Notes: generated by a model not told the origin, from the sequence alone. Positions 10,344 to 54,325 are shown, counted from the stretch's first letter. The stretch is DNA of 64,000 nt from an uncultured Verrucomicrobiota bacterium (GCA_964503335.1 CAZCZZ010000010.1:2036-66035); one strand, 5' to 3'. Translations and numbers: made by a program.

Positions 10344-10646
10344 GGTGATAACGAAGCTCCCAATTGTCGCGACTGCATGAGTACGTGAAGCAATGGAAAC
10401 GGAGACCGAAGGAGCACGACTGAACCTTAAAAAAGTGAGTGGGCCGTTGTAGCAAAGCCCGCCAGGATCCAGTAAGGCTGGCAAGAGAGGTTCCGAATAC
10501 GTGCCGAGTCACATTCTAGCATTGGCTCCTTGTCCGATCAGGCGCTGGCTGTAAGAATGCGCGACATTGTTGAGCAGCGGCGCGCGGGTTGTTTCTTTCA
10601 AAGGAGTGCCTGTCGCTGACATCTCCGAGATGTTACCAAATTGGCC

Positions 10647-22865: not shown

Positions 22866-23210
22866 GGCTATTCAAATTTCAATGTGGCTTCAAAGCGGCA
22901 CTGGAGGCATTCGCCTCTGAACGGGACATCAACCCTGCGTCTGCCCCGTTACGGGATGCCCTAAATCGAAAATTTGGCGACGAACACAGCATTGGAGCCA
23001 AAGAGTATGCTGATTTTTGTCTGGGAGGAATACGGGGCTTGGGTGCAATCGAAGACTTTGATATTAGATACGCCCAGCGTGTTCAGGAAGCGGTGCTTGT
23101 TGGGGAGCAACTGCGGTTGGCCTTTGGTTGAACCGCAGGTCACGCTGCCTGATATCCCGATAATCGTATGATGATTACTTGCTCTGAAGCGGTTGGATGT
23201 GGGGTGCGCC

Positions 23211-25493: not shown

Positions 25494-25529
25494 TGTGAAT
25501 GCAGCAGAGACAATGAACTGATTCGTCCA

Positions 25530-27221: not shown

Positions 27222-27231
27222 GGGATAATTC

Positions 27232-29350: not shown

Positions 29351-32300
29351 ATGGCTAGACCACGCAAGACGGACAACGGCATCAAGACCGCCGACTACCG
29401 GCACGACGGGGAGAAGCGGACGAATATTCCGCCGGCGAAGATGGCGGGGGAGGGGGAGATTCCGAAGGTGAAGAAAGTGCGGTATCACTATAGCCCGCAC
29501 CTGTCGCCGGAGTTGCGCTTCGATCCCACCGGCAAGGCGGATCGGGTGATGGCGGTGAAGGAGAAGGCGGGGCAGTATCTGACGGCGAAGGAGAAAGAAC
29601 TCCTGGATCAGGCTCTGGCGAGCCAGCAGCCGTGGTTGGAGTGGGCGGGGAAGAAAGAGCAGTACGACCGCGGTTGGTTCGAGGTGGATCCCGTCGCACT
29701 GCACATCCACGAGCGCGTCAGCGCCCAGGCGATCGTTCGCGCCGCGATGCGGGAGGACCTGCAACGGGACCTCTTTGCCGATCCCCAACTGGAATACCAG
29801 AAGGCCGTCCAGTTCTATCAGCACGACATCGACTGGGCCAACCGCCTCATCCTCGGCGACAGCCTCCAGGTCATGTCCTCCCTCGCTCGCCGGGAGAACC
29901 TCGCCGGCAAGGTACAGATGATCTACATCGATCCGCCGTATGGGATCTCATTCAATACCAATGTCCAAATCGCGACAACAACGCGACAAGCGGCCAACCC
30001 GAACCCGGTTCCCACGGGTCAAACAGAGATGGTGAAAGCTTATCGTGATACTTGGTGTTTGGGAACACACTCCTATCTCACATACCTCCGCGACAGACTT
30101 GCCGTCGCCCGAGAACTGCTGACAGATGCCGGGAGCATCTTCGTTCAGATTGGTGATGAAAACCTTCATCGTGTGCGGGCGATATTGGATGAACTATTCG
30201 GCGAGAAGAACTTTTGTGGGCTGATTGTGTTCTCCAAGAACAGCGGGGCGACTGACGCTCTAATGTCATCGCCCAGCGATTACATTCTATGGTTTGCGAG
30301 GGATCGTTCGTTGGTGAAGTATAACCAGCTCTACTATCCCAAAACCGAAGGCAGCGTATTTGCTGAGCGATATGATGGTGTGGAGCTGTGCACCGGCGAA
30401 AAGCGGACGAGAACAAAGGAGGAGGCAACCGGGTCCGTGTCACTCCCGGAGGGCGCACGCCTGTATACCGAGCAGCCGGCCGTTTCCCAGGGTTACCGCG
30501 AAACAACATCGGTTCCATTCGCGATGAACGATTTCGTTTGCGACATTGGTAAGCAGCGCAACTGGAAGACATCGCTTGCTGGCATGTCGCGGCTCGCGAA
30601 GGCAGAACGCCTCAAAGGGTCATCAAAGATGATCTACTTCATACGGTGCCTTGAGGACTTCCCGGCTTATGCGATGAACTGCATGTGGACGGACACACAG
30701 GATCGGATGGCGAAGAAGTACGTTGTCGAGACAGTGCCGCGCGTAATTCAACGGTGCATGCTTATGACGTCGGATCCCGGCGATTTGGTTTTGGATCCGA
30801 CCTGCGGGAGCGGTACGACGGCATACGTCGCCGAGCAATGGGGCAGACGTTGGGTCACCATCGACACCAGTCGCGTCGCGGCTTCGATAGCCCGCCAGCG
30901 CCTGCTGACGGCCAAGTACGAGTTCTTCAAGTACCGCGACGAAGCGAAGGGCGTGGCCGGCGGGTTCCGGTACAAGACGGTGCCGCACATCACACTGAAG
31001 TCGATCGCGCAGAACCAGAACCTCGATCCAATCTTTGGAAAACACGAACCGATCCTTCTCCAAGCCTTGGACGCGTGTAACAAGGCGCTTGGTCAGGTGT
31101 CGGACGCCTGCCGTTCCAAGCTGAAGGCCAAACTTCAGGCGAAGCAGGCGGCGGAGGGCAAGCGGGCGATCACCGACGCGGACGAGCGGCGGTGGAATCT
31201 TCCTGTAGGGCCGTCGCTTGCGACGAGCCGCAACGATGAGCGGGCTTCGGCGAGCGAAGCCCCTACGGGCTTCGAGCACTGGACGGTTCCATTCGACACC
31301 GATGAGGACTGGCCGAAGGCATTGCAGGAGGCGGTGACGGTGTACCGGAAGGCGTGGCGGGCCAAGATGGATGAGGTGAACCGCTGCATCGAGGAGAATG
31401 CCGACCAGGAGGAGTTGGTGGACCAGCCCGAGGTCGTGAGGGGTATCCTCCGCGTGAGCGGCCCGTTCACGGTCGAAGGGGTTCGGCCCGAGGAACTGTC
31501 GATGGGCGAGGACGGCAAGCTCTTCGATCCGACGCAGAACGATTGGGAAAGCGACTCACCTGCGATGGAGCCGCAGAACATCAGTGCCTACCTGTCGCGC
31601 ATGGTGGAACTGATCCGCAAGGACGGCGTGACGTTTCCCAACAACAAGCACCAGAAGTTTGCCCGGGTCGAGCCGCTCTACGAGGAGCGCACGGGACTCG
31701 GCATCCACGCGGAGGCGATCTGGGAGGGCACAAGCGAGAAGGAGTCGAGCAACATCGCCATCGCCTTCGGTCCTCAGTACGGACCCGTGACGGCGATGCA
31801 AGTGGAGGAGCTGATCCGGGCCAGCCGGCGCTACGACGAGTTGGTCATCGCCGGGTTCAGCTTCGATGCCGCGGCCACAGAGATCATCCAGAATGCCCAG
31901 CACCCGAAGCTGAAGATCCACATGGCCCACATCCGACCGGATGTCAGCCCCGGCATGGACGGCCTGCTCAAGGACACGCCCAACAGCCAGCTCTTCACGG
32001 TGTTCGGCCAGCCCGAGATCAGGATCAAGAAACACAAAGACGGAACGGTGCAGGTGGAACTGGTGGGCGTGGACATCTACGACCCGCTCAAGGGGGAGGT
32101 AAAGTCCTCCGGCGCTGACAAGGTGGCGGCGTGGTTCCTGGATGGCGACTACGACGGCCGCTGCTTCTGCATCACGCAGGCCTTCTTCCCCGACCAAAGC
32201 GCGTGGGAGAAGATCGCGAAAGCGCTGGGCAGCAGCGCCGACTCTGAGGTCTTTGAAGCCTTTAATGGCACGGAATCTGTTCCCTTCAAGCCCGGCAAAC

Positions 32301-32374
32301 ACAAACGCGTGGCTGTGAAGGTGATCGATCCTCGTGGCAACGAAGTGATGACCGTGCGGAAACTCGATGCCTAA
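29351..32374 (+). CDS. beta-class N6/N4 DNA methyltransferase, type III Mod-like (1007 aa)
   Basis: Motif IV IYIDPPYGISF precedes motif I DPTCGSGTTAYVAEQWGRRWVTID. ATG at 29351 is 4 nt after the OLD stop. Confidence 0.85.
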   Translation: MARPRKTDNGIKTADYRHDGEKRTNIPPAKMAGEGEIPKVKKVRYHYSPHLSPELRFDPTGKADRVMAVKEKAGQYLTAKEKELLDQALASQQPWLEWAGKKEQYDRGWFEVDPVALHIHERVSAQAIVRAAMREDLQRDLFADPQLEYQKAVQFYQHDIDWANRLILGDSLQVMSSLARRENLAGKVQMIYIDPPYGISFNTNVQIATTTRQAANPNPVPTGQTEMVKAYRDTWCLGTHSYLTYLRDRLAVARELLTDAGSIFVQIGDENLHRVRAILDELFGEKNFCGLIVFSKNSGATDALMSSPSDYILWFARDRSLVKYNQLYYPKTEGSVFAERYDGVELCTGEKRTRTKEEATGSVSLPEGARLYTEQPAVSQGYRETTSVPFAMNDFVCDIGKQRNWKTSLAGMSRLAKAERLKGSSKMIYFIRCLEDFPAYAMNCMWTDTQDRMAKKYVVETVPRVIQRCMLMTSDPGDLVLDPTCGSGTTAYVAEQWGRRWVTIDTSRVAASIARQRLLTAKYEFFKYRDEAKGVAGGFRYKTVPHITLKSIAQNQNLDPIFGKHEPILLQALDACNKALGQVSDACRSKLKAKLQAKQAAEGKRAITDADERRWNLPVGPSLATSRNDERASASEAPTGFEHWTVPFDTDEDWPKALQEAVTVYRKAWRAKMDEVNRCIEENADQEELVDQPEVVRGILRVSGPFTVEGVRPEELSMGEDGKLFDPTQNDWESDSPAMEPQNISAYLSRMVELIRKDGVTFPNNKHQKFARVEPLYEERTGLGIHAEAIWEGTSEKESSNIAIAFGPQYGPVTAMQVEELIRASRRYDELVIAGFSFDAAATEIIQNAQHPKLKIHMAHIRPDVSPGMDGLLKDTPNSQLFTVFGQPEIRIKKHKDGTVQVELVGVDIYDPLKGEVKSSGADKVAAWFLDGDYDGRCFCITQAFFPDQSAWEKIAKALGSSADSEVFEAFNGTESVPFKPGKHKRVAVKVIDPRGNEVMTVRKLDA

Positions 32375-35300
32375 CGTTCCTCAGAATCAGCAGCCCGAAG
32401 CGACGCGAGATCACAACATGCTCTCTGCGATGGAAGTCGCGTTGCAGGATGAGATCAAGGCAGCAAAGCGAAGCCGTCATCGCATTACGCTGTTTGATGG
32501 CGATTTGATAAGCAAGAAGGATGGAGTCTATGCGTACCGTTTCGAGCTTCCTGAGGGGGTGACGCTTGCCAACGTGGAAGAGATTGAGATCGGCGTCGAT
32601 CAAGGCATGGTCGAGGGAGAGGTCGCGAGTGTCGACAGTCAGTTTGTCGTCATCAACCTCGAGGAGGATCTTGGCAAGAAGGTCGAGAAGCTTTCGATCG
32701 AGTGGTCCACGACGGTAGTCCTTGAGAAGATGCTGGAACGAATCGGCGAGATGAAGTCTCAGCCCGACAAGTTCAACATGAGTCTGATGTCCGACCTCTT
32801 CTCGCCGCAGAAGACTTCTGTGTCCTCTCCGTTTTCCGGTGTCGCTCTAGAGGACGACATACGGACTCCAAACCAGCGAAAGGCCATTCGCGGTGCTTTG
32901 TCGAACAAGATTAGCTTTGTGTGGGGACCTCCCGGAACAGGGAAGACTAGCACGCTGGGCTTCATTGCCTGCAGCTTGGTGGAGCGGGGTGAACGCGTTC
33001 TGCTGGTCAGCAATACAAACCGCGCGGTGGACGTGGCGCTGCAACAGGTGATCAAGTGTTTCAAGACCTTCAAGAAGGAATGGAAAGACCGGATCACGCG
33101 GTATGGCCGCCCGTTTATTCTCGATGATCCGGACCTTGATCGCATCTTTTTCACCAATCAGATCCAAGCCGCGCGTGAAAGACTGATTTCGAACGTCGAG
33201 AAGCAAGCAGCCTTGATAAGCAAGTATGAGCGTTTCGCAAAGCGCGCTGCAGAGCATGATCAACTCGTAGCCGAGGTGGAATCAGCGAAGCGAAAACTGC
33301 TCGGCATCCAGACCAAGCGGGCTGGTCTGCAGAAGACACTCGATTCTACAAGGCAACGCGCGCAGAAGCTCGAAGGGCTTGGGGGACTTCTCGCCGAATT
33401 TGGAGAAGTGACTCACCGGGTCAGCGCCTTCAATGCGATCCTGGAGGACGCCCGAAACAAGAGGGCGAGAGCAGATCAGGAGGACCACCTGCTTCAGGCA
33501 AAGGGTCAGGACCTGAAGAAGGCTACGGAGCGAATCGAAAAGAGAAACAAAGGCGGGCTTTTGAGCATCGTCGGCACGTTTCTTGGACCCTCACGCGAAT
33601 CCCTTGAACGGGAGAAGAACTCAGCCAGTGCCGCAGTTCTGGCCGCAAAGAAGAGCTATCAGGACGCGCTCAGCCTCGCTGCGGCCGCAGATAAGAGAGT
33701 TGAAGAACAGGTCGACAGAACTCAACTGGCCCGGTTGCGCGAGCTTGAGACGGAATTGGCCAGGCATGCAATAGATCTGCAGATAGTCGCTCTGACAAAG
33801 CCCGGCTTTTCGACTGATGCGGCCATCAAGACGCTACGCGAGGAAGCAACGCGCCTGACCTCAGAGATCGAGAAGGGGCAGGGTACCCTGATTGAACAGC
33901 AGAAACAGGTAGACGCATTCATCGCCAAGATCAACACCGCCGACATCGCAAGCCAGCGGGCGAAGTTTGATGCCGTAAAGGCGGAGATTGCATCGAATGG
34001 GGGGGTGGAGCAGATCAAAGCCTTTGTTCAAGAGAACACAAAAGTGGACGAAGAGGCCCTTCTCAAGGAAATGAGGTTGATCGGCGCCACTTTGGCCAAG
34101 TCGGTCGCCAATCGCGCAATCGCGTCATCCCGCTACGACGCCATTCTGGTAGATGAGGCCAGTATGGTGAGTCTTCCGTATCTCGCGATCCTTGCGGCCA
34201 TAGCGCACAAGCGCGTGATTGTTGTGGGTGATCCCCAGCAGCTGCCCCCTATTGCACTTGCCTACTCGGAACACGCACAGCGATGGCTGGAGCGCGACAT
34301 GTTTATGCAGGCAAGCGGATCTCAGAACGTGGACCAGCTGTTTGCATGGCACGATGCGAATCCTGAATTCACATACTTTCTCGACACTGATTACCGCATG
34401 ACCGGCGAGCTCAGTGGGATTATCAACGACTTATTCTACGCCGGTCGGCTCAAGAACGGTCGCGTGAATGAAGAGGAGGACGAACTGGCGGGAATACAAC
34501 TGATCGACACAGCCTCGTTGAGTCCGACCCTCTCAGAACTGCCTTCAGGTAAGGGAAAGTTCCCGGTCTACAACCCGGTTCATACGGAGAAGATCGTCGA
34601 TGTCGTTCGGGTTCTGTCTGAAGGCGGCCTTGTCGATGCTGGTGAGATCGGCATCGTCGTACCGTTGAATTCTGCCGCGGTGTGGATTCGTCAAGAGCTC
34701 AAGAAGGCAGGCTTTCGCAGCGTCGAGGTGGGAACGGTTCACACGTTCCAAGGCCGGGAGAAGCAAGTCATCATCTTTGATACGGTGGTCAGCGGCGTTG
34801 ATTTCACAATCCGCCCATTCGACGAGCAGAAAACCGGTGACGCGGTGAAGCGACTTCTGAATGTCGCTTTGTCTCGAACGAAGAAGACTTTGGTCGTAGT
34901 GGCTAACATGAGGCATTTCCGATCGGTCTATCGCGATAGGCTGGTCCTGCGTGTGCTCGGGCGAATCGAGAAAGCTTCACGAATTGCCGAGCACCCGGAT
35001 GTGGAAGATCCGGAAATAGAGGACGAAATTATCGTTGAGGACTTTGGAGTCGAGGGTGGCGTAGATCTGGAGCTCCAGGACGATCTGGATCCTTCGGATC
35101 CGCCGATCCAGGAAGTGCTTCATGACCATCCCGTCACCACTGTCTTAGTGAAAGAGCCTGACGTCACCGCCACCGTTCAGGCTCCCCCCCCTGGCGATCG
35201 GGGCATGCCGCCAGAAATTGTTTCTCAGCCGTCCGTTGACTCAAAGCGGTCTGTCCTGAAGGACGTTCAGAAGCTCGGCCATGAGATCACCTCTCTCCGT

Positions 35301-35738
35301 GGTGAGATCAATGTGCTGAGCACGCGACTCCGTGGTGCTCCGTTGTTCAAACTGTCGGTGGAAGGCGAGCAGATCGCGGGAAAGTTGCCGCAAACCGTGG
35401 TCTCCAGTGAAGGCACCTTCAAGGATTGGATCGATTCGGTTTACAAGTACTTCTATGAGTCGTCAGGGGGCCCCAATGCCGGTCCCCCGATTGTTGATCG
35501 TCAGGTCGACGTGACAAAGATCCGTTGGCACATCAATAGGCTGAGAAACGGATTCTTCCATGATTCTGCGCATACGGATGACCCCGTCAGGGACGCCGAG
35601 ACGCAGCGGAAGGTCTATGATCACTTCATCGGCAAGCCGTATCCGACGCAGTCACATGAATGGACAGCTCTACAGCTGTCCGTGATGTATCAGGTCGTCG
35701 AATGGTTGAAGTACATCGTCGGGAGATTAAGGGGTTAG
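32367..35738 (+). CDS. SF1B (DNA2/Upf1-like, AAA_11/AAA_12) helicase with coiled-coil insertion and unknown C-terminal domain
   Basis: GPPGTGKTS, ILVDEASMV, VGDPQQLPPI, YRM, VHTFQGREKQVIIF and LNVALSRTKK. About 300 aa of coiled coil lies between Walker A and B. An acidic linker and a ~190-aa tail follow. Confidence 0.8.
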   Translation: MPNVPQNQQPEATRDHNMLSAMEVALQDEIKAAKRSRHRITLFDGDLISKKDGVYAYRFELPEGVTLANVEEIEIGVDQGMVEGEVASVDSQFVVINLEEDLGKKVEKLSIEWSTTVVLEKMLERIGEMKSQPDKFNMSLMSDLFSPQKTSVSSPFSGVALEDDIRTPNQRKAIRGALSNKISFVWGPPGTGKTSTLGFIACSLVERGERVLLVSNTNRAVDVALQQVIKCFKTFKKEWKDRITRYGRPFILDDPDLDRIFFTNQIQAARERLISNVEKQAALISKYERFAKRAAEHDQLVAEVESAKRKLLGIQTKRAGLQKTLDSTRQRAQKLEGLGGLLAEFGEVTHRVSAFNAILEDARNKRARADQEDHLLQAKGQDLKKATERIEKRNKGGLLSIVGTFLGPSRESLEREKNSASAAVLAAKKSYQDALSLAAAADKRVEEQVDRTQLARLRELETELARHAIDLQIVALTKPGFSTDAAIKTLREEATRLTSEIEKGQGTLIEQQKQVDAFIAKINTADIASQRAKFDAVKAEIASNGGVEQIKAFVQENTKVDEEALLKEMRLIGATLAKSVANRAIASSRYDAILVDEASMVSLPYLAILAAIAHKRVIVVGDPQQLPPIALAYSEHAQRWLERDMFMQASGSQNVDQLFAWHDANPEFTYFLDTDYRMTGELSGIINDLFYAGRLKNGRVNEEEDELAGIQLIDTASLSPTLSELPSGKGKFPVYNPVHTEKIVDVVRVLSEGGLVDAGEIGIVVPLNSAAVWIRQELKKAGFRSVEVGTVHTFQGREKQVIIFDTVVSGVDFTIRPFDEQKTGDAVKRLLNVALSRTKKTLVVVANMRHFRSVYRDRLVLRVLGRIEKASRIAEHPDVEDPEIEDEIIVEDFGVEGGVDLELQDDLDPSDPPIQEVLHDHPVTTVLVKEPDVTATVQAPPPGDRGMPPEIVSQPSVDSKRSVLKDVQKLGHEITSLRGEINVLSTRLRGAPLFKLSVEGEQIAGKLPQTVVSSEGTFKDWIDSVYKYFYESSGGPNAGPPIVDRQVDVTKIRWHINRLRNGFFHDSAHTDDPVRDAETQRKVYDHFIGKPYPTQSHEWTALQLSVMYQVVEWLKYIVGRLRG

Positions 35739-35740
35739 TC

Positions 35741-35893
35741 GACAACAGCCATGACCACACCGAAAGCGTCGCCTTCAAGCCGGGCCGGCATAACCGAGTC
35801 GCTGTTAGAGTCGTTGACCCGCGCGGCAGCGAGGTCATGTCTGTGACAAGGGTGGATGAACTAAGCCGAACGGTTAGTGGAAGAACTGGTTGA
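35741..35893 (+). pseudogene. remnant of the C-terminus of a second, homologous Mod-like methyltransferase
   Basis: Translates to ..HTESVAFKPGRHNRVAVRVVDPRGSEVMSVTRVDE.., parallel to the real MTase end ..GTESVPFKPGKHKRVAVKVIDPRGNEVMTVRKLDA (about 23/33 identical by eye). Its TGA overlaps the next ATG. Confidence 0.75.
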
Positions 35894-39972: not shown

Positions 39973-40688
39973 GCGATATGACTTCGTTGGAGCAAGCGTT
40001 GCTGGCACTTCAGCAAGAGCTCGAGTCGTTCAGGGATCTACGCCCTAAGTTGGACGAGGTGAAGTCAAAGGCCGATGCAATCGTTGCCGAGTTCAAGGAT
40101 CAGATGATCAGCGTGGAGGCGCACTCGCGTGATACAGTTCGCGAGGCGAAAGAGTCCTATGGAGACTTGTCCGCCCGGAATCGGGAGCAGTTCGAAGAAC
40201 TGAAGACCGCATGGGACACTGAACTGCAGCTCGCGCAAACGCAGCTCAAGTCATTTGATCAACTCTTGTCCGAAGCTTCGTCCGCCTTTTCCGAAATGGC
40301 CTCAATGGCTACCCTGGTTCGCGACGTAGGAAGCATGTTGAATGGCCTGAACCTGCCATCACGCATGGACAAGTTGGATGCATCCGTCGCTGGGGCGTCA
40401 GCTGCTGTGCAGAGTGTTCAGTCCAGATTTGACCGTTTGAGCGATGATGTCGCCGTCAGTATGCGAAACACAACTCTGGAGACGGCGCGAATGGTCGAGG
40501 GGGCCACGGCAAAGGTACTCGCGGCGCAGGACGGGGCGTCCAAGGCGATTGCGGCGGATTGTCGATCACTGCGTTCATCGTCACGACGGGCCTACGTGTG
40601 GATATTCTCTTTAATCGGGCTCAGTATCGGGTTAAGTCTCGCCAATCTGTTTGTCATTCTGATCCAGGGCGGAGTCCTCTCTCGATGA
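39969..40688 (+). CDS. coiled-coil protein with a single C-terminal transmembrane anchor
   Basis: ATGA overlap with the upstream gene. Heptad-like Leu/Glu/Gln-rich sequence. C-terminal YVWIFSLIGLSIGLSLANLFVILI. Confidence 0.6.
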   Translation: MSDMTSLEQALLALQQELESFRDLRPKLDEVKSKADAIVAEFKDQMISVEAHSRDTVREAKESYGDLSARNREQFEELKTAWDTELQLAQTQLKSFDQLLSEASSAFSEMASMATLVRDVGSMLNGLNLPSRMDKLDASVAGASAAVQSVQSRFDRLSDDVAVSMRNTTLETARMVEGATAKVLAAQDGASKAIAADCRSLRSSSRRAYVWIFSLIGLSIGLSLANLFVILIQGGVLSR

Positions 40689-40731
40689 TTAAAGTATCTG
40701 TTATCGACCGTAAGGGGATTGGGGAACGTCC

Positions 40732-43700
40732 ATGACCACGCGAGCACCCAAGGCTATTCAAGAACCTCCGTCCGACTGGACGCCGACCCAATCGGTTCCC
40801 GACCCGATCATCAACAATCCGTACAAAGAACCAGAGCACTACTGGCTCTACAAGGGAGGCGTTCCTGGCAAGACCCCAGGGCGGCGGCCGGCACGGTATT
40901 TCTATCAGAGTAAACGCGTCGGATCTGCATCGGCGGAGATGGAGTTGTTCAAGGAAGAGAACGAGGAGGATCTCCCGCTCGTCAATGCACTGCGCGCGGA
41001 CGTGAAGCGCTGGCGTGAGTCCGGCTACCGCGGTGCGTCGTCGGTGACTCGGGAACTGCTGGCGTGGTGGAGTCGACCTGATCGACCGAGACGCTTGTTC
41101 TACTGCCAGATGGAGGCCGTGGAGACGCAGATCTATCTGCTCGAGTTGGCCATCCCGGAGCGTCTATCGGCCACAGGGTACAAGACTTTTGAACTCGACG
41201 CTGATAATATCCAGCGGCTGCTAAAGGGTGAAAAGCCAACGTTTGAAAGCATCGCCGGCGATTTCTGGCCCAAGTTGGTCGATGCACCGTGGGATGGCAG
41301 CCAGCTTCCGCTGCGCCGCCTTGCCTGCAAGATGGCGACAGGGAGTGGGAAGACGATTGTCATGGCGATGCTGATCGCCTGGGCTTTCTGCAACCGGGCG
41401 AGAAATCCGCAATCCACACAATTTCCGAATGGCGTGTTGGTCTGTGCGCCAAACCTCACGGTGAGAAAGCGACTTCAGGTGCTCTGTCCCGAGGACAAGG
41501 ACAACTACTACGATGCATTTGACCTGGTTCCGCCGAAGTACCGGGAATGCCTCAACGGGGGCAAAGTATTGGTGACCAACTGGCACGTCTTTGCGCCCAA
41601 GAGCGAGCACGTGGAGGGCGGTAAGAGCTATGCGGTCGTCAATAAGGGGGCGGAAACCAATGATGCCTTTGTGCGAAACCGGCTTGGAGAGTTGGTGCAG
41701 CGACTTCCTATCTTGGTGATGAACGATGAGGGACATCACTGCTGGCGCAGTAAGCAACTGAGTACGGAAGAGGAGCGCGCGGTTATGCAAGGCATGACTG
41801 CTGAACAGAAGGCCGCACTAAAGGAAGAAGAGGATGAAGCGAGGGTTTGGCTAGCGGGGTTGGATCGAATCAATAACTGTGGGTTGGCGGGCAAGGATGG
41901 GGAGGGGAAGCTCAACAGAGCCATTCTCGCGTGTGTTGATCTATCGGCGACACCGTTCTTCCTTGGCGCCAGCGGACATCCGGAGGGCAGTCCCTTCCCG
42001 TGGATTGTCAGCGAGTTCGGCCTGATCGATGCCATTGAGAGCGGCATCACGAAAGTCCCTCGATTGCCTGTCGAGGATAGCGAAGGCAATACGGACGATG
42101 CCGGACGACCCGATCCGAAGTACTTCAGGCTCTGGAGGAATATTGTTGAGAACGACCTCAAGCCCGGCGACTTCATCCGGCGCGGCCAGCCTAATCCGGA
42201 ATCGATCTACAAGTATGCCCAAGGCGCGCTGGCTACGCTTGCAGCGCAGTGGAAGATTCAGTTTGAAGGCTATCGTCAGGCATCGGCAGGCAAACCCTTC
42301 ATCCCGCCCGTGATGATCGTCGTGTGTGACAACACAAACATCGCGAACATCTTCTTCCGGGAAATAAGTGGCGAATCCGACGTGGAAATGATCAATGAGT
42401 CTGGTGAGACGGTCACGGCGAAGAAGTACTCGGAAAGTTCAATCATGCCCGAGCTGGCCAACACGCCGAATGTGCAGCACACCATCCGCATAGACTCGAA
42501 GCTGCTTGCCAAGATTGAGACGGAAGAAGGCGAGAGCAAGGACGAGGCTGCTCTGCGACTTCGTGAAATCATCGACACGGTGGGCAAGAGGGGCGGAGCC
42601 GGCGAACACGTTCGCTGTGTAGTGTCCGTTTCGATGCTGACGGAAGGTTGGGACGCAAACAACGTGACCCATGTGCTGGGTGTACGTGCCTTCGGTAGTC
42701 AGCTCCTCTGTGAACAGGTTGTGGGCCGAGGCCTGCGCCGTATGAGCTACACCCCTGATCCAGAGACTGGACTGCTGCATCCGGAGTACGTGGACGTATA
42801 CGGGATTCCCTTTTCGCTCATCCCGTTCAAGGGGAAACCGAAAGAGAAGGACGGGCCGGATCCCGTCTACCACGCGATCTTTGCAATGGAGGAGCGGAAG
42901 GCATTCGAGCTGCGCATGCCGAATGTTGAGAGTTACGTGTACGCGCTGCGCGAAGGTGGGATCTGGTGCGATGTGAGCAAGTTGGAGGGTTTCATCGTCA
43001 ACGAGGAGCCAGTAACGGTCTACTTGGCGCCGACGCGGGGCTATCAAGATGAGGCCGAGGTGCGCAAGGACTCCGGAGACTTTATTCCCCAGACTCGCCA
43101 GGAATACTACAAGGCAGTGCGGCCGCAGCAGGTGATCTTTCGCCTGGCTGAGTTTATCCTCGCTGATCTCCTTCATGGAGTTGAGGCTGCGGAATCTGAA
43201 CGGGTAAAATTCAAGTTCCTTGCCCGGCACCAGCTTTTCCCTGAAATTGTGAAGATCGTTCGGGATTACGTGGAGCAGAAGGTGACGTTTGCACCGGGAG
43301 TAGATATCCGGGAACTCGGTTTGAAGGTCTATGCCGACAAACTGAGGGAACGCATTCGCGACGAAATCCTCCCGCGCGCTGCTAGCTCCGACACCAAACT
43401 TCTGCCGGTCCTCAACAGTTTCCAGCCCTTCACGAGTACCGCCAATGTGAATTACCAGACGACTCGACCTGTTGTTGATCTGGTGAAGAGCCACCTCAAC
43501 CGGGCTGTCACGCGCAGTAGTTGGGAGAGTCGAGCGATCGGAGTTCTGGAACTATTGGACTGCGTCGAGTGCTACACCCCGAATGACCGACAAATCGGGC
43601 TGATTGTTCCCTACGACTACGATGGGCACAGACACAACTACGAGCCGGATTTCATAATCCGGCTGCACAACAAGAAGACACTGATGCTGGAGATCAAGGG

Positions 43701-44385
43701 TGAGGGCGGAGTCATCCACGATCCCAACCTTGTCACCGCGAAAAGCGCTGCAGCGAAGAAATGGGTGGCCGCGGTCAACAACCTTGGTCGGTGGGGCACT
43801 TGGGCGTTCGACATATGCACGGATCTCTCGAAGCTGCGAGAAATCGTAGAATCCCATGCGGACGTGGAGGCGTCGGCGCGTCCGTTCCGATTCGTGGACG
43901 TGTCGACCGCCAAGCCCTGGCGTGATTGTATTCCGCTCACGACGCTGCAGGCGGCTGCGGGCAAATTCAGCGAGGAACAAGCCGGCTTTGATGAAATGGG
44001 TGAATGGGCCGAGAGCTGGATTGCTTGGGATGGCGCGCCCGCCTTTGAGAAAGGGATGTTCGTGGCGAAGGTGCTTGGCACGTCCATGGAGCCTGGCATA
44101 CCCGATGGCGCTTACTGCGTTTTCCGTCAGCCGCGGCCAGGTTCTCGGCAGGGGCGAACGGTCCTGGTTTGGCATTCAGGGGTTTCCGATCCTCACACAG
44201 GCGGCCAGTACACGGTAAAGGTGTACGAGAGTGAGAAGCGGTCGGGCGAAAAAGGCGAGTGGTCTCACACGCAGATAACGCTCAGGCCGACCAACCCGAC
44301 TCATCAACCCATCATCCTCGAACCAACGGACGAGGGTGAGGTCCGCGTAGTAGCAGAGTTTGTGCAGGTTCTTGGGTCGCGTTGA
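40732..44385 (+). CDS. type III restriction Res-like helicase-nuclease fused to a C-terminal S24 (LexA/UmuD-like) peptidase domain
   Basis: MATGSGKT, MNDEGHHC, TEGWDANNVTHVLG...QVVGRGLRR, and PD-(D/E)XK YEPDFII...LEIKG. Terminal GTSMEPGIPDGAYCVF...YTVKVYE gives an S24 Ser/Lys pattern. Confidence 0.8.
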   Translation: MTTRAPKAIQEPPSDWTPTQSVPDPIINNPYKEPEHYWLYKGGVPGKTPGRRPARYFYQSKRVGSASAEMELFKEENEEDLPLVNALRADVKRWRESGYRGASSVTRELLAWWSRPDRPRRLFYCQMEAVETQIYLLELAIPERLSATGYKTFELDADNIQRLLKGEKPTFESIAGDFWPKLVDAPWDGSQLPLRRLACKMATGSGKTIVMAMLIAWAFCNRARNPQSTQFPNGVLVCAPNLTVRKRLQVLCPEDKDNYYDAFDLVPPKYRECLNGGKVLVTNWHVFAPKSEHVEGGKSYAVVNKGAETNDAFVRNRLGELVQRLPILVMNDEGHHCWRSKQLSTEEERAVMQGMTAEQKAALKEEEDEARVWLAGLDRINNCGLAGKDGEGKLNRAILACVDLSATPFFLGASGHPEGSPFPWIVSEFGLIDAIESGITKVPRLPVEDSEGNTDDAGRPDPKYFRLWRNIVENDLKPGDFIRRGQPNPESIYKYAQGALATLAAQWKIQFEGYRQASAGKPFIPPVMIVVCDNTNIANIFFREISGESDVEMINESGETVTAKKYSESSIMPELANTPNVQHTIRIDSKLLAKIETEEGESKDEAALRLREIIDTVGKRGGAGEHVRCVVSVSMLTEGWDANNVTHVLGVRAFGSQLLCEQVVGRGLRRMSYTPDPETGLLHPEYVDVYGIPFSLIPFKGKPKEKDGPDPVYHAIFAMEERKAFELRMPNVESYVYALREGGIWCDVSKLEGFIVNEEPVTVYLAPTRGYQDEAEVRKDSGDFIPQTRQEYYKAVRPQQVIFRLAEFILADLLHGVEAAESERVKFKFLARHQLFPEIVKIVRDYVEQKVTFAPGVDIRELGLKVYADKLRERIRDEILPRAASSDTKLLPVLNSFQPFTSTANVNYQTTRPVVDLVKSHLNRAVTRSSWESRAIGVLELLDCVECYTPNDRQIGLIVPYDYDGHRHNYEPDFIIRLHNKKTLMLEIKGEGGVIHDPNLVTAKSAAAKKWVAAVNNLGRWGTWAFDICTDLSKLREIVESHADVEASARPFRFVDVSTAKPWRDCIPLTTLQAAAGKFSEEQAGFDEMGEWAESWIAWDGAPAFEKGMFVAKVLGTSMEPGIPDGAYCVFRQPRPGSRQGRTVLVWHSGVSDPHTGGQYTVKVYESEKRSGEKGEWSHTQITLRPTNPTHQPIILEPTDEGEVRVVAEFVQVLGSR

Positions 44386-44401
44386 GCAGCTGGGTGGACA
44401 T

Positions 44402-45799
44402 ATGCCCGATTACAGTTGGCAAGAAGAAGCGTTGGTTCGCTGGTCTGCCAACGGGCGATGTGGGATCGTAGAAGCCATAACTGGCACAGGTAAGACATAC
44501 CTCGGCATCAAGGCGATCGATGAAGTCATGCGTCGTGATGGCGAACAAGGCCTACATGTCTACCCCGTTGTCGTCGTACCCACAGCCGTTCTGCTGCACC
44601 AATGGGTCGAACGACTCCGAGACCATTTCGAAGCTAGGGGCATGCGGATCGGGCTGGTCGGCGATGGGCGAGCCGATGGGTTTCACAATCACCACATCCT
44701 CGTGACCATCGTGAACTCCCTTGAAACGCACGGACGTGAGCTTCTCCATTTCTTAGACCGTATGACCCTGGCGCGATCCCTCCTTGTGGCCGACGAATGT
44801 CATCACTACATCGAGGCGCCGTTTCTTGGAAAGACTGCACGAGAGTTTCCATTCAGCTACCGTCTGGGTCTGACAGCGAGGATGCCGACGGGCGACTGCA
44901 TTGACTATGACAGGATTCCGGGGTTTGACAGGGTCGTCTATGACATGGGTATGAAGGAGGCGAGAGAGCGCGACCTCATCCCACCTTTCCATGTTCTGAA
45001 CGTTCCTGTTCCGCTGACAGCTTCTGAGGGGGCGAGCTATGACGATCTGTCGGCCCGGCTTAAGCAACTGCGGCAGCGGTTGGAAGAGGAGCTGCCTGCT
45101 GCTTGCTTCTCCAGACGAGGACATCTGGATCTGGACCTTCTGAAGAATCATCTGCGGAAACTCACCGAGGACGATCCGCTCCGGCACCGCATTGAGCAAT
45201 TCTTCGCAATGTGTTTCCGGCGAGCCGCGATCTACCACTTGTCTGATGGAAAGGTGTCGGCATTGAGGCGGGCAATTCAGATCATTGCGCCATATGGAGG
45301 TCGAATCCTTGTCTTCTTTGAACGCATTTGTTCAGCCGATTCGGCATTGGAGCTACTGGAGGAAGACATTCAGAGAATACCGGAAGCTTTGGGTTTGCGC
45401 GCATCGACTTTCCCTTGGTGTAGGGTGTTACACAGTGGTTTGACGAAGGCACAGCGACTCGACGTATTGCGCGAATATGACGAGCCGGGTAACAAGATCC
45501 TCATTGCCTGCCGAAGCCTTGATGAGGGGTTCGACATTCCTTCAGCAGACATCGCAATTCTGGCGGCTTCAACGCAGTCACCGCGGCAGCGAATCCAGCG
45601 GATAGGACGCGTACTCAGAAGGTACAGCAGCGAGAAGAGGTCAATCATCCTGACCTTCTATGCGCCCGGAACTGGAGATGAGCGGGTGCCATCCAATGAT
45701 CGTGAGATGTTTCCAGGACCGACCGATGTGTTTGACTGCACGCTGGGCGACTGGGAGGCAACGTTGAAGGCGTTGCTCGAGTACTACCGCAGTAAATGA
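44402..45799 (+). CDS. SF2 DEAD/DEAH-box (ResIII/XPB-like) helicase
   Basis: AITGTGKTY, LLVADECHHY, GLTAR, and C-terminal LDEGFDIPSADIAIL...SPRQRIQRIGRVLR. Confidence 0.75.
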   Translation: MPDYSWQEEALVRWSANGRCGIVEAITGTGKTYLGIKAIDEVMRRDGEQGLHVYPVVVVPTAVLLHQWVERLRDHFEARGMRIGLVGDGRADGFHNHHILVTIVNSLETHGRELLHFLDRMTLARSLLVADECHHYIEAPFLGKTAREFPFSYRLGLTARMPTGDCIDYDRIPGFDRVVYDMGMKEARERDLIPPFHVLNVPVPLTASEGASYDDLSARLKQLRQRLEEELPAACFSRRGHLDLDLLKNHLRKLTEDDPLRHRIEQFFAMCFRRAAIYHLSDGKVSALRRAIQIIAPYGGRILVFFERICSADSALELLEEDIQRIPEALGLRASTFPWCRVLHSGLTKAQRLDVLREYDEPGNKILIACRSLDEGFDIPSADIAILAASTQSPRQRIQRIGRVLRRYSSEKRSIILTFYAPGTGDERVPSNDREMFPGPTDVFDCTLGDWEATLKALLEYYRSK

Positions 45800-45820
45800 T
45801 TCATCGGGAGCACATGCATC

Positions 45821-47494
45821 ATGAGCGATGATCCGTCGAAGCCACGAGTCCTTCATGACTTGCGAGAGCTTGCGTTCCCAGCTCCTCCAAAGGAGACACG
45901 GACACAGCAGCCTGTCCGAGAGGTTCCGCCGAGAAAGGTCACGGAATCTCCCACCACAATCTCGGGCGGCGATCCACACAATCCGAATGCTCACCGTTCG
46001 GATACCAAGGTGGCTGGATTGGAGTCTGAGTTGACACGTGTCAAGAAGGCCCTTGCAGACAATGAGGCGTGGAACAGGAAACTCAAGGAGGACAGCAAGG
46101 CACTCCTGCAGAAGAACCAGGATGCAATTGCACAGCTCGAGCGTGTACGCAGTGAACTGCAACGGGAGGAGCGCCGGCTGGAGGAAGTACGCGCCGAAGC
46201 GAATCATATAGCCTCGGTCACGCCGGAGGCATCCCTTCGCAAGATTGACCAAGATATGGAGGCGGCCGCGGCACTTCTCGAGAGCGCGAGGGTTGAAACG
46301 GAGCGTATGCGCAAGGAGGCCGAAACCAATATCGCGAACGAGCGGGCAGAGCTGAGTACCCGCGAAGACGGACTGCGTAAGAAGGAGTTGGAACTTCAGC
46401 AAGTCCGGAAGCGACTGGGCGATGAACTCACCACGACCCAGGCGGAGCGCGATACAGCAATCAAGAGGGCTTCCTCGCTTCAGGGACAGATCACGAAGCT
46501 GAAGAACGAGGCCGAGGAGATGTCTGAAGAGCAAGAGCGTCTGAAGGACAAGCTCGGCTCAGTCGCGAGGGAGCGACAACTGGCGAGGGAGGAGCTTCGC
46601 GAGGCACAGGAGAAGCTGGAGGAGAGCGCCAAGGCGATCGCTAAGCTGACGACGGCCAATGATCGGTACAGTAGTCGCATTGCAGCCGCGATGGGGACTT
46701 TCATAGCACATAGTCCGCTCGTTTCGGAGTGGCTGATGGGTCTTGATGGGATGGGTGAAGGAGTCGACTGGACAAAGCTTGTAGTCACTCTTGGAAGTGA
46801 TCCGATTCAGGAGTCGTGTCTCGACCGAATTCTGGAGGATCGGGATCATGAGGTGGCGGGTGTCGGACACAACAAGTCGGGCGTCATGATCATCGGTCGT
46901 GAGGATTGGACGATGGATGATATCCAGCAGCAGATTGAAGCGAGGGAAGGGGACACACTGAGGATCTACTCCCAGGAGATGGCCATGATCGCACTGCTGA
47001 CGGGTCATGATCCCTTCGATGCAGGGGACGAGGTTCTGCGCGAGTTCGGGGAGAGTCATCCCGCATTGAGCCGGCTGATGGACGATCCGTTCGAGTGGCC
47101 TTCCACGGGAAGTCGCACCTACGGAGACGTTGTGATCTCTGCGGATGAATGGCGACCGAACAGTCCTTTGACTGCGATGGGATACCATGTAGGCAAATCA
47201 TCAAATCTCACAGAGGCGGAGCGGCGCAAGACATTGGAGACCATCTTTCGCGGGCGCTTGCAGTTCCCGCCGGGGTTCTCCGAATCGGATAAGCGAGAGT
47301 GGGGAATTCCCTCATCGAGTGACCGCCTCCATCGAATCGCTGCTCACATCGCACAAGTCATAGGCCGATTCTCCCAGCAAGCGTATGCTGACTACAGCGT
47401 AGCCGTCGAGGAGTGGCGTTCTGATCTGGCATGGTTGAAGCGAACGTTCTACCGTGGCACCCATCGCTTCCGCTGGCCAGACGTGAATATGTGA
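45821..47494 (+). CDS. coiled-coil protein with unknown globular C-terminal half
   Basis: About 220 aa of heptad-rich E/K/R/L sequence (aa ~60-280), followed by a non-repetitive region. Last gene of the plus-strand array. Confidence 0.6.
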   Translation: MSDDPSKPRVLHDLRELAFPAPPKETRTQQPVREVPPRKVTESPTTISGGDPHNPNAHRSDTKVAGLESELTRVKKALADNEAWNRKLKEDSKALLQKNQDAIAQLERVRSELQREERRLEEVRAEANHIASVTPEASLRKIDQDMEAAAALLESARVETERMRKEAETNIANERAELSTREDGLRKKELELQQVRKRLGDELTTTQAERDTAIKRASSLQGQITKLKNEAEEMSEEQERLKDKLGSVARERQLAREELREAQEKLEESAKAIAKLTTANDRYSSRIAAAMGTFIAHSPLVSEWLMGLDGMGEGVDWTKLVVTLGSDPIQESCLDRILEDRDHEVAGVGHNKSGVMIIGREDWTMDDIQQQIEAREGDTLRIYSQEMAMIALLTGHDPFDAGDEVLREFGESHPALSRLMDDPFEWPSTGSRTYGDVVISADEWRPNSPLTAMGYHVGKSSNLTEAERRKTLETIFRGRLQFPPGFSESDKREWGIPSSSDRLHRIAAHIAQVIGRFSQQAYADYSVAVEEWRSDLAWLKRTFYRGTHRFRWPDVNM

Positions 47495-50596: not shown

Positions 50597-50811
50597 GACA
50601 GTGCCTTGTTGGGGGCGAGACCCGCTTAATGAATGACGGGACCTTCTTTGAGTATGTCTTTCACCAAATACCCGACTTTGTCGAGCCATCCTCGGAGTTC
50701 TGATTCGTTTTGAATAGTTGCTGTAGGAAGCACGATCCGGATAGCGTCAGGCCGAGCTCATCCTGCATCATGGTTCTGCTGATGTGTGGTCTACTCGCAG
50801 AAAACGTCAGC

Positions 50812-52979: not shown

Positions 52980-53003
52980 TCTCTTTCTCCTTTGTGTTGT
53001 TGA

Positions 53004-54315: not shown

Positions 54316-54325
54316 GTGGGGTTCC

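What the first reader, a model, noticed from the sequence alone, without database searches (positions are those of the whole stretch)
29351..47494. Type III-like Mod and Res separated by 8.4 kb of helicase genes: a multi-helicase MTase-linked locus
The beta-class Mod-like MTase (29351-32374) and the Res-like helicase-nuclease (40732-44385) are not adjacent. Between and after them lie an SF1B helicase, a Vsr-nuclease-RecQ fusion, a membrane-anchored coiled-coil protein, an XPB-like SF2 helicase and a coiled-coil protein. All have overlapping or short (at most 43 nt) junctions. Four helicase superfamily members plus one MTase in one transcription unit go beyond a canonical type III R-M. This may be a composite or new system in which Res is only one effector.
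Basis: partly seen in the sequence, partly recalled or inferred. Interest (0 to 1): 0.75.

Follow-up and report, generated by a model that had tools for sequence, protein, structure and literature searches.

The report
Defence genes nested inside a restriction operon
A type III-like restriction-modification gene pair has been split by separately acquired helicase modules, so this is a defence island built inside a restriction operon, not one new multi-helicase machine.

Summary
Mod (29351-32374) and a Res-like helicase-nuclease with a LexA-like S24 tail (40732-44385) lie 8.4 kb apart. Between and after them are an SF1 helicase, a Vsr-like/RecQ fusion, a tail-anchored coiled-coil protein, an SF2 helicase and a coiled-coil protein. 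One detail is wrong: the SF1/RecQ junction is 151 nt, not 43 nt or less.

Comparative genomics argues against one integrated system.
- In 71 related loci Mod and Res are partners: 45 are adjacent and 26 carry 0.5-4.7 kb of varied cargo between them.
- In the S24 clade, 11 of 15 non-redundant loci have nothing between Mod and Res.
- The closest relative (L174) has only SF1 there. L088 has only RecQ plus the small membrane protein.
- Both modules also occur far from any Mod/Res.
- The 151-nt gap holds a relic of a Mod 3' end, a physical recombination scar.

Possibly new points are the Res-S24 fusion (cleavage site, Ser and Lys covary), the RecQ plus membrane-protein module, and the Mod|Res junction as a recurrent cargo slot. 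Interest is moderate.

The parts
10641..13508 (+). UvrD-type SF1 helicase fused to a Cas4/PD-(D/E)XK nuclease.
   Evidence: Pfam UvrD-helicase 8e-53, UvrD_C 2e-39, PDDEXK_1 6e-25. Present upstream in every S24-clade locus with enough flank: 13 loci have both S24 and UvrD, 27 have neither. This association with type III Mod/Res was already noted in PMC5704561.
13505..17774 (+). Three-gene block: Dam-like D12 MTase (13505-14377), HerA/DUF87 ATPase (14383-16368), ~466-aa NurA-like protein (about 16374-17774). It often accompanies the core.
   Evidence: Pfam/PADLOC results. NurA is weak (E 0.06; 'faint' on the L088 orthologue). The trio recurs in L003/4, L005, L007, L088 and L063. HerA plus the third gene also recur in L011. 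In L002, Dam, DUF87 and a 435-aa gene lie after Res.
17811..29346 (+). Cargo slot A, between the NurA-like gene and Mod. Contents: Azaca-like genes (369-aa ORF, ZacB-like PLD, ZacC-like helicase), a relic of another gene (22877-23113), a 766-aa ORF with no family, GmrSD (25530-27221) and OLD (27232-29346).
   Evidence: L003, L005 and L007 have nothing here. L088 has only GmrSD. L174 has 327-aa and 292-aa genes plus GmrSD (91% id) and OLD (89% id).
29351..32374 (+). Mod: beta-class N6/N4 DNA methyltransferase of a type III-like R-M, with a long C-terminal extension shared by the family.
   Evidence: PADLOC MTase_III 1e-163 and Pfam N6_N4_Mtase. DPPY at aa 194-197 precedes the DPTCGSGTT motif at aa 482-490. 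Linked to this Res family in 71 loci.
32367..35738 (+). Cargo B1: Upf1/IGHMBP2-like SF1 helicase (MkoA-like core) with unassigned N- and C-terminal regions. Its start overlaps the Mod stop by 8 nt.
   Evidence: Only one close full-length homologue was found (P0241, 49% id), at the same Mod|Res slot in L174. Remoter relatives (about 35-44% id) sit next to GmrSD or a Septknot-domain protein, and neither contig shows any Mod or Res match.
35759..35857 (+). Relic of a Mod 3' end inside the 151-nt SF1 | RecQ gap. It is a recombination or insertion scar.
   Evidence: Translates to FKPGRHNRVAVRVVDPRGSEVMSVTRVDE, 70% identical over 33 aa to the Mod C-terminus (tblastn E 1.4e-11). DNA identity to the Mod 3' ends of the window and related loci is 68-75%. 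Among the loci compared, only the window has a second copy.
35890..40688 (+). Cargo B2, a two-gene module. A Vsr/DUF559-like nuclease domain + RecQ-family helicase + ~500-aa C-terminal region (35890-39972), followed by a tail-anchored coiled-coil membrane protein (39969-40688) with a 4-nt overlap.
   Evidence: The small proteins after RecQ in the window, L088, L090 and L092 align: coiled coil, an FP(S/R)RLDK(L/I)D motif, and a C-terminal TM helix. The pair sits between Mod and Res in L088/89 (RecQ 40% id against 62-69% for the flanks). It stands alone in L090/91, L092 and L185.
40732..44385 (+). Res-S24: SF2 helicase motifs, a C-terminal PD-(D/E)XK nuclease, then a LexA/UmuD-like S24 domain (about aa 1050-1217) with an AAAG site (1074-1077), Ser1118 and Lys1163.
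   Evidence: NCBIfam NF046055 'BPTD_3080 family restriction endonuclease', 861 bits against a cut-off of 800, covering aa 190-1042. Pfam Peptidase_S24 1e-8. Invariant K207, D332, E333, D973, E987, K989. The AF2 model (pLDDT 62) matches LexA, lambda CI and UmuD in the top 20 PDB hits. More than 120 full-length homologues.
44360..47494 (+). Cargo slot C, after Res. An XPB/Dnd-restriction-like SF2 helicase (probable start 44399, end 45799), then a 557-aa coiled-coil protein with a conserved unnamed C-terminal domain (45821-47494).
   Evidence: Neither gene matches any of the other S24-clade loci. The C-terminal domain family has 196 representative clusters at E<=1e-30. The AF2 model has pLDDT 92, and its first ~100 aa resemble BRCT domains at a weak Foldseek E of about 1e-2. 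In the other loci this position holds different genes: SbcCD-like, OLD+UvrD+RmuC, an SF1-DUF559 protein, or Dam/HerA.

Best explanation
The locus is a defence island nested inside one operon of a type III-like restriction-modification system.

Core. The conserved core is a UvrD-Cas4-like helicase-nuclease, often a Dam/HerA/NurA-like trio, a large beta-class Mod, and a Res of the BPTD_3080 family with a LexA-like S24 tail.

Inferred core mechanism, by analogy with type III enzymes:
- Mod marks host DNA.
- Mod-Res uses the SF2 ATPase and the PD-(D/E)XK site to cut unmarked DNA.
- The S24 tail has an intact Ala-Gly site and Ser/Lys dyad. It probably self-cleaves, possibly on RecA-ssDNA, and so tunes Res activity.
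- UvrD-Cas4 probably processes the resulting DNA ends.

Cargo. The junctions of this operon, above all Mod|Res, act as cargo slots. Autonomous defence-type modules accumulate there through recombination between related loci. Here the slots hold:
- A: Azaca-like genes, a 766-aa ORF, GmrSD and OLD.
- B: an SF1 helicase, and a Vsr-RecQ plus tail-anchored membrane protein pair.
- C: an SF2 helicase plus a coiled-coil/BRCT-like protein.

The cargo is co-transcribed with the core but works independently of Mod and Res, giving layered immunity.

What is shown: domain content, synteny statistics, independence of the modules, and the recombination scar. What is inferred: every biochemical activity, co-transcription, and the anti-phage role of the unnamed modules.
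For: 1. Mod and Res are partners. 71 loci from many phyla carry both families, and 45 have them adjacent, with 1-4 nt overlaps in L002, L003 and L005.
2. The junction is a slot. 26 of 71 loci hold 0.5-4.7 kb between the two genes. The contents are unrelated: GmrSD (L007, L056), PDDEXK_4, GMT-wHTH+DUF5131, Fic, AAA_15/21 ATPases (twice), Bro-N+DUF1828, and an HD/dGTPase-like protein.
3. The window's slot B combines two modules that occur singly. L174 has Mod-SF1-119aa-Res. L088/89 has Mod-RecQ-171aa-Res.
4. Cargo is far more diverged than its flanks. In L174, SF1 is 49% identical against 76-91% for the flanks. In L088, RecQ is 40% against 62-69%.
5. Both modules live elsewhere without Mod/Res. 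RecQ plus the small protein is in L090/91, L092 and L185 (L185 is a defence island with Shedu and a type I R-M). SF1 relatives are in L175 and L176.
6. A relic of a Mod 3' end lies between SF1 and RecQ. A second relic, of an L174-type gene, lies at 22877-23113.
7. The core extends upstream. UvrD-Cas4 is linked to the S24 form: 13 loci have both, 27 have neither. The link to type III Mod/Res was reported earlier (PMC5704561).
8. Res passes the curated BPTD_3080 equivalog cut-off.
Against: - SF1 and the RecQ module each recur at exactly the Mod|Res junction in a related locus. The only close full-length SF1 homologue found among 5.8 billion proteins is at that junction. This could mean functional coupling, not just a hotspot.
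- Junctions are very tight, and the SF1 start overlaps the Mod stop. That fits co-translation with the core.
- Samples for standalone contexts are small: three non-redundant loci for RecQ plus three short contigs, and two for SF1.
- I found no context data for homologues of the SF2 and coiled-coil pair.
- No expression or phenotype data exist. The S24 self-cleavage and UvrD-Cas4 roles are inference only.
Confidence: 0.7

Rival explanations
1. Plug-in accessory model. The helicase-nuclease modules at the Mod|Res slot are optional but functionally coupled effectors. They use the Mod methylation mark, or the breaks or stalled complexes made by Res, much as type IV enzymes complement BREX. Res would then be one of several effectors reading one self-mark.
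For: - The same two module families recur at the same junction in different lineages.
- The closest SF1 homologue is found only there.
- Junctions are tight or overlapping.
- Cargo in and around these loci is rich in DNA helicase-nucleases and in GmrSD. GmrSD lies within the fetched flanks of six further non-redundant loci carrying this Mod/Res family (L007, L008, L056, L084, L088/89, L174).
Against: - Most loci lack any cargo at this junction.
- Cargo elsewhere is functionally unrelated (Fic, Bro-N, HD, DUF5131).
- The RecQ module occurs with no methyltransferase nearby in L090 and L092.
- SF1 relatives occur without Mod/Res.
- The divergence pattern and the Mod relic point to cassette exchange.
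Confidence: 0.2
2. Single obligate multi-helicase system. Mod, SF1, Vsr-RecQ, the membrane coiled-coil protein, Res-S24, the SF2 helicase and the coiled-coil protein form one machine.
For: The genes are co-directional and tightly packed, with no promoter or terminator excess. There are four helicase-superfamily genes plus one MTase.
Against: - No other locus among the 15 non-redundant S24-clade loci has the full set.
- The SF2 and coiled-coil genes are absent from all the others.
- SF1 and RecQ never co-occur elsewhere.
- 11 of 15 have Mod directly followed by Res.
- The Mod 3' relic shows stepwise assembly.
Confidence: 0.04
3. Decaying R-M. The insertions uncoupled Res from Mod, and the system is non-functional or on its way to loss.
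For: In relatives Mod and Res are translationally coupled by 1-4 nt overlaps. Here they are 8.4 kb apart.
Against: Both ORFs are full length, and every invariant catalytic residue of the family is kept. Split arrangements recur in 26 of 71 loci, which argues that they are tolerated.
Confidence: 0.06

Closest known systems
Type III restriction-modification (EcoP15I / EcoP1I type)
   Same: Two-gene logic: a beta-class Mod, and a Res with an N-terminal SF2 helicase-like ATPase and a C-terminal PD-(D/E)XK nuclease. Mod-then-Res order with overlapping genes in the nearer relatives (40-72% identical Res); the more distant clade has Res before Mod.
   Different: Only remote sequence similarity to canonical Res: PADLOC REase_III E 1e-8 over 44 residues, PRK15483 E 6e-4, Pfam ResIII below its cut-off. 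Mod is about 1000 aa with a long C-terminal extension. Res carries an S24 tail. A UvrD-Cas4 gene is a constant partner. Here Mod and Res are 8.4 kb apart.
BPTD_3080 family restriction endonuclease (NCBIfam NF046055) and its neighbouring methyltransferase
   Same: Res scores 861 bits against the equivalog cut-off of 800. PGAP uses this name for plasmid homologues.
   Different: The model ends at about aa 1042, so the S24 extension is not part of the family definition. I found no paper on this family.
UvrD-Cas4 + type III Mod/Res neighbourhoods (Hudaiberdiev et al. 2017, PMC5704561)
   Same: The same three-gene association. [quoted passage not shown]
   Different: The passages I retrieved from that paper by keyword do not mention the S24 tail, the Dam/HerA/NurA-like trio or cargo at the Mod|Res junction. 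I did not read it in full.
R-M and BREX operons with embedded defence genes (for example BrxU/GmrSD in BREX, and type I hsd loci carrying other systems)
   Same: Unrelated defence genes sit inside another system's operon and are probably co-transcribed. GmrSD is a frequent guest. L185 shows CBASS-like genes between hsdS and hsdR.
   Different: Here the host operon is a type III-like system, the slot lies between Mod and Res, and the guests are large helicase-nuclease modules. The BrxU example is from my own knowledge. My keyword searches listed reviews and papers on embedded defence genes but I did not read them.
LexA / UmuD / lambda CI (peptidase S24)
   Same: Pfam S24 above its cut-off, an Ala-Gly site upstream of a Ser/Lys dyad, and a predicted fold that matches LexA, CI and UmuD C-domains.
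   Different: The domain is fused to the C-terminus of a restriction endonuclease, not to a DNA-binding repressor domain or a polymerase subunit.
RecQ-like defence proteins (PsyrT of PsyrTA, DpdF) and Hhe (helicase + Vsr)
   Same: The RecQ-family helicase core hits the DpdF and PsyrT models (1e-57 to 1e-77). Combining a Vsr/DUF559-type nuclease with a helicase resembles Hhe (the Hhe architecture is from my own knowledge).
   Different: The hits cover the helicase core only. There is no PsyrA and there are no other dpd genes. Hhe is an SF1/DUF4011 protein. The partner here is a tail-anchored coiled-coil membrane protein.
Mokosh MkoA
   Same: The SF1 helicase core matches MkoA and MkoC models (5e-52, 2e-35).
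   Different: The match covers the helicase part only. There is no MkoB or PLD partner, and the N- and C-terminal regions are unassigned.

Membership tests
Type III R-M | Beta-class (motif IV before motif I) N6-A/N4-C methyltransferase Mod | tested here: met
   DPPY at aa 194-197 precedes DPTCGSGTT at aa 482-490. PADLOC MTase_III 1e-163. Pfam N6_N4_Mtase 1.4e-27.
Type III R-M | Res with an N-terminal SF2 helicase-like ATPase and a C-terminal PD-(D/E)XK nuclease | tested here: met
   Motifs I, II, III and VI are present. D973, E987 and K989 are invariant in 22 homologues.
Type III R-M | Significant match to canonical type III Res profiles | tested here: inconclusive
   PADLOC REase_III E 1.4e-8, but over 44 residues only. 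NCBIfam PRK15483 E 6e-4. Pfam ResIII 21.3 bits against a cut-off of 22.5.
Type III R-M | mod and res adjacent in one operon | tested here: not met
   They are 8.4 kb apart in the window. They are adjacent in 45 of 71 related loci.
Type III R-M | ATP-dependent cleavage that needs Mod and unmethylated sites | not testable with these tools
   Needs biochemistry and methylome data.
BPTD_3080 family restriction endonuclease (NF046055) | Score above the curated equivalog cut-off | tested here: met
   861.3 bits against a cut-off of 800, aa 190-1042 aligned to model positions 148-969 of 970.
Peptidase S24 (LexA-like) | Pfam gathering score, Ser/Lys dyad, and an Ala-Gly site N-terminal to the domain | tested here: met
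   35.3 bits against 23.3. S1118, K1163 and AAAG at 1074-1077 are present. In 6 of 22 homologues Ser is replaced by Ala and Lys by Arg together, and 5 of those 6 also lose the AG site.
Peptidase S24 (LexA-like) | LexA/UmuD C-domain fold | tested here: met
   The top 20 Foldseek PDB hits are all LexA, lambda CI or UmuD (E 2e-4 to 1.5e-2, probability 1.0). Model confidence is moderate, pLDDT 62.
Peptidase S24 (LexA-like) | Self-cleavage, stimulated by RecA-ssDNA | not testable with these tools
   Needs an in vitro or in vivo cleavage assay.
Mokosh | MkoA helicase together with a MkoB PLD nuclease, or the fused MkoC | tested here: not met
   Only the helicase core matches. SF1 has no PLD-domain hit in Pfam, and neither flanking gene (Mod, Vsr-RecQ) is a PLD nuclease.
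PsyrTA / Dpd | The RecQ-like protein with its cognate partners (PsyrA, or DpdA-K) | tested here: not met
   The hits cover the helicase core only. The neighbouring gene is a coiled-coil TM protein with no PADLOC family.
BREX / DISARM / MADS (MTase-linked multi-gene systems) | Signature genes such as PglZ/BrxC, DrmA/DrmB, or mad1-8 | tested here: not met
   Only weak helicase-core or MTase-core hits: mad2 8e-8, mad8 2e-6, BrxH and DrmD about 1e-5. No signature proteins among the seven genes.

The most novel reading that the evidence does not exclude
The Res-S24 / UvrD-Cas4 branch of this type III-like family may be a damage-sensing restriction system. Its Res would be switched by LexA-like self-cleavage on RecA filaments. 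Its Mod|Res junction would be a selected docking site for helicase-nuclease effector cassettes (SF1; Vsr-RecQ plus membrane anchor) that depend on the same methylation mark. That would make it a modular, multi-effector, epigenetically gated immune operon. Separately, the Vsr-RecQ plus tail-anchored coiled-coil pair may be an undescribed autonomous two-gene defence system.
Probability: 0.15. Interest if true: 0.75.

Novelty: new variant of a known kind. Interest (0 to 1): 0.48.

Why it matters
The result reassigns an apparently exotic multi-helicase system to a known theme: defence genes nested in a restriction operon. It also documents that theme for a type III-like family, with a visible recombination scar.

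It gives three testable leads:
1. A restriction endonuclease fused to a LexA-like self-cleaving domain whose site and dyad covary. This would link restriction to the DNA-damage signal.
2. A conserved pair, a Vsr-RecQ helicase-nuclease plus a tail-anchored membrane protein, found in several defence islands. It is a candidate new defence system.
3. The Mod|Res junction as a slot that could be mined for new defence genes.

Tried and rejected
- Megablast of the 18-kb region against PLSDB plasmids and complete E. coli genomes gave no match.
- The one metagenome scan, with the RecQ alignment, chose generic RecQ motifs. It returned mostly ordinary RecQ genes. Only a few full-length relatives came back, on short contigs and with no Mod/Res nearby.
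- Viral-contig scans with SF1, SF2 and the 557-aa protein gave nothing useful.
- tblastn of the 557-aa protein against plasmids found only its C-terminal domain, in hypothetical proteins.
- I tested whether SF2 plus the 557-aa protein is a split version of longer helicase fusions seen on plasmids. It is not: the C-terminal parts do not match.
- A single-sequence PDB search of the S24 tail found nothing, and a profile search gave only weak LexA/UmuD hits. The fold search was needed.
- Literature searches for BPTD_3080, S24-restriction fusions and RecQ-Vsr-membrane modules found no description.
- Membership of Mokosh, PsyrTA, Dpd, BREX, DISARM or MADS was considered and rejected, because only generic helicase or MTase cores match.
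- The promoter/terminator scan was uninformative.
- The junction DNA alignments showed that Mod-SF1 homology between the window and L174 ends at the Mod stop codon, and gave no further insight.

Full report
**1. Observation**

The + strand carries an uninterrupted train of large ORFs. In the flagged interval the genes are:

| Coordinates | Gene | Main evidence |
|---|---|---|
| 29351-32374 | Mod, 1007 aa | N6_N4_Mtase; PADLOC MTase_III PDLC03632 1e-163; DPPY before the FxGxG-type motif, i.e. beta class |
| 32367-35738 | SF1 helicase | AAA_11/AAA_12; IGHMBP2/Upf1-like; MkoA-like core |
| 35890-39972 | RecQ-family helicase with N-terminal nuclease-like domain | passes TIGR00614; Vsr/DUF559-like domain weak here but seen in homologues, with conserved acidic/His residues |
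| 39969-40688 | 239-aa coiled-coil protein | C-terminal TM helix |
| 40732-44385 | Res, 1217 aa | SF2 motifs; PD..ExK; Peptidase_S24 above Pfam's cut-off |
| 44360-45799 | SF2 helicase | XPB/Dnd-restriction-like |
| 45821-47494 | 557-aa coiled-coil protein | |

The description is correct apart from one junction. SF1 and RecQ are 151 nt apart, not 43 nt or less.

**2. Mod and Res are a real pair, and normally adjacent**

Res has more than 120 full-length homologues, all about 1,200-1,240 aa and 56-72% identical. It passes the curated NCBIfam equivalog 'BPTD_3080 family restriction endonuclease' at 861 bits against 800. That model covers aa 190-1042, not the S24 tail.

I examined the neighbourhoods of five homologues and 80 loci from a scan of species-representative genomes. 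I compared them with the window's proteins by tblastn. Of these, 71 loci carry both this Mod family and this Res family.

There are two arrangements:
- Mod then Res: Res is 40-72% identical to the window's. The S24 tail occurs only in the 52% and above branch.
- Res then Mod: Res is 33-36% identical, with no S24 tail.

In 45 of 71 loci the two genes abut, with 1-4 nt overlaps in L002, L003 and L005.

**3. The junction is a recurrent cargo slot**

In 26 of 71 loci, 0.5-4.7 kb lies between Mod and Res. The inserted genes are unrelated to each other:
- GmrSD (L007, L056)
- a PDDEXK_4 nuclease
- GMT-wHTH + DUF5131
- Fic
- AAA_15/AAA_21 ATPases (L062, L081)
- Bro-N + DUF1828
- an HD/dGTPase-like protein

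Among 15 non-redundant S24-clade loci, 11 have an empty junction.

**4. The window's junction is a mosaic of two separable modules**

The closest relative is L174. Identities to the window are:

| Gene in L174 | Identity to window |
|---|---|
| NurA-like gene | 85% |
| GmrSD | 91% |
| OLD | 89% |
| Mod | 76% |
| SF1 | 49% |
| Res-S24 | 80% |

L174's order is Mod, SF1, a 119-aa ORF, then Res-S24. It has no RecQ and no membrane protein.

L088/L089 reads UvrD-Cas4, Dam, HerA, NurA-like, GmrSD, Mod (62%), RecQ (40%), a 171-aa protein, Res (69%). It has no SF1.

Each module therefore occurs alone at the same slot. In both cases the cargo is much more diverged than its flanks.

The small proteins that follow RecQ in the window, L088, L090 and L092 are homologous. 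They share an N-terminal coiled coil, an FP(S/R)RLDK(L/I)D motif and a C-terminal TM helix. This defines a two-gene module. It also stands alone:
- L090/91, beside VIT/VWA and toxin-antitoxin genes.
- L092, beside a PIF1-type helicase.
- L185, in a defence island with Shedu and a type I R-M.

None of these has this Mod or Res. Full-length relatives on short metagenome contigs also lack Mod upstream.

SF1 is rare. Only one close full-length homologue was found. Remoter relatives that share its C-terminal region sit next to GmrSD (L175) or a Septknot-domain protein (L176), without Mod/Res matches.

The SF2 helicase and the 557-aa protein have no counterpart in any other S24-clade locus. After Res, those loci carry instead SbcCD-like genes, OLD+UvrD+RmuC, an SF1-DUF559 protein or Dam/HerA.

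**5. A physical scar**

The 151-nt SF1 | RecQ gap contains a relic of a Mod 3' end at 35759-35857. It translates to FKPGRHNRVAVRVVDPRGSEVMSVTRVDE. That is 70% identical over 33 aa to the Mod C-terminus (E 1.4e-11), and 68-75% identical at the DNA level to Mod 3' ends of the window and related loci. Among the loci compared, only the window has a second copy.

The simplest reading is that RecQ once followed a Mod gene directly, as in L088. A Mod-SF1 segment of the L174 type then recombined in and left the old Mod tail behind.

A second relic lies in slot A at 22877-23113. It is 40% identical over 79 aa to the 292-aa gene of L174.

**6. The conserved core is larger than the flagged region**

Upstream on the same strand lie:
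- a UvrD helicase fused to a Cas4/PD-(D/E)XK nuclease (10641-13508)
- a Dam-like MTase (13505-14377)
- a HerA/DUF87 ATPase (14383-16368)
- a roughly 466-aa protein with faint NurA similarity

The UvrD-Cas4 gene accompanies every S24-clade locus that has enough flank. Counts are 13 loci with both, 27 with neither, 8 with UvrD only, and 1 with S24 only. That last locus has a truncated flank. This association with type III Mod/Res was already described (PMC5704561).

The Dam/HerA/NurA-like trio recurs but changes position.

Between it and Mod the window holds 11.5 kb of further cargo: Azaca-like genes, a 766-aa ORF, GmrSD and OLD.

**7. The S24 tail**

Pfam S24 is above its cut-off. An AF2 model (pLDDT 62) has LexA, lambda CI and UmuD C-domains as its top 20 PDB matches.

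The window protein has AAAG (1074-1077), Ser1118 and Lys1163. Among 22 homologues, six have Ser replaced by Ala together with Lys replaced by Arg. Five of those six also lack the Ala-Gly site. That covariation suggests real self-cleavage where the triad is intact. RecA dependence and the effect on restriction are inference.

**8. The 557-aa protein**

Its C-terminal ~235 aa form a widespread unnamed domain, with 196 representative clusters at E<=1e-30. The model is confident (pLDDT 92). Its first ~100 residues resemble BRCT domains only weakly, at Foldseek E of about 1e-2.

**9. Verdict**

The locus is a type III-like R-M operon (BPTD_3080 family, with S24 tail and UvrD-Cas4 partner). Its junctions have collected autonomous defence-type modules. 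It is not a single multi-helicase system.

A weaker 'plug-in effector' link between the helicase modules and Mod/Res cannot be excluded, because both modules recur at the same slot.

Embedded defence genes in R-M or BREX operons are a known theme; my searches listed papers on it that I did not read. I found no description of the Res-S24 fusion or of the RecQ plus membrane-protein module.

Noticed in passing
window 17811-22865: Azaca-like set on the same strand: a 369-aa ORF, a PLD protein (ZacB 1e-13) and a helicase (ZacC 7e-33). It fills the slot between the NurA-like gene and Mod.
   Followed up: partly
window 23193-25493: 766-aa ORF with no Pfam or PADLOC match, sitting between the Azaca-like genes and GmrSD.
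   Followed up: no
window 22877-23113: Short stretch 40% identical over 79 aa to the C-terminus of the 292-aa gene that L174 carries at the equivalent position. Probably a second recombination relic.
   Followed up: partly
window 25530-29346: GmrSD (HEC-05-like) and OLD nuclease directly before Mod, 91% and 89% identical to the same pair in L174. GmrSD also lies within the fetched flanks of L007, L008, L056, L084 and L088/89, which carry this Mod/Res family.
   Followed up: partly
window 5663-10343 and 52230-56015; tRNA-Thr 63052-63127 (-): Integrase, ADP-ribosylglycohydrolase and a PcfJ-like gene upstream. DUF932, a PDDEXK_1 nuclease and a DnaN-like gene downstream on the minus strand. G+C is lower than in the sequence at the left end of the window (1-5 kb) and in the stretch at about 51-57 kb. 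The whole array probably sits on an integrative mobile element. Its ends were not mapped.
   Followed up: no
window 47696-50689 (-): 997-aa ORF on the opposite strand just after the array. Its only hit is a weak IF2_N match.
   Followed up: no
L185 15455-23996: Another nested case: CBASS-like SMODS cyclase and patatin genes lie between hsdS and hsdR of a type I R-M. A Vsr-RecQ plus 185-aa module and a Shedu gene are next to it.
   Followed up: no
window 43951-44226 (Res aa 1074-1165) and alignment A1: The Ala-Gly site, Ser and Lys of the S24 tail are lost together in a subset of homologues. This suggests active and inactivated forms of the tail.
   Followed up: partly
window 46718-47494: The C-terminal domain of the 557-aa protein belongs to a large unnamed family (1,675 representative proteins at E<=1e-3). 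It is found at the C-terminus of proteins of about 220-1,022 aa with variable coiled-coil N-termini. The first part is BRCT-like.
   Followed up: partly
L001 13651-17958; L039 13678-15945; L024 13567-14856: Other S24-clade loci carry different helicase genes straight after Res: an SF1 helicase with a DUF559 domain in L001, a weakly similar SF1 helicase in L039 (28% id, domains not checked), and a RecQ-core match in L024. Helicase-nuclease cargo around this operon is common but not orthologous.
   Followed up: partly
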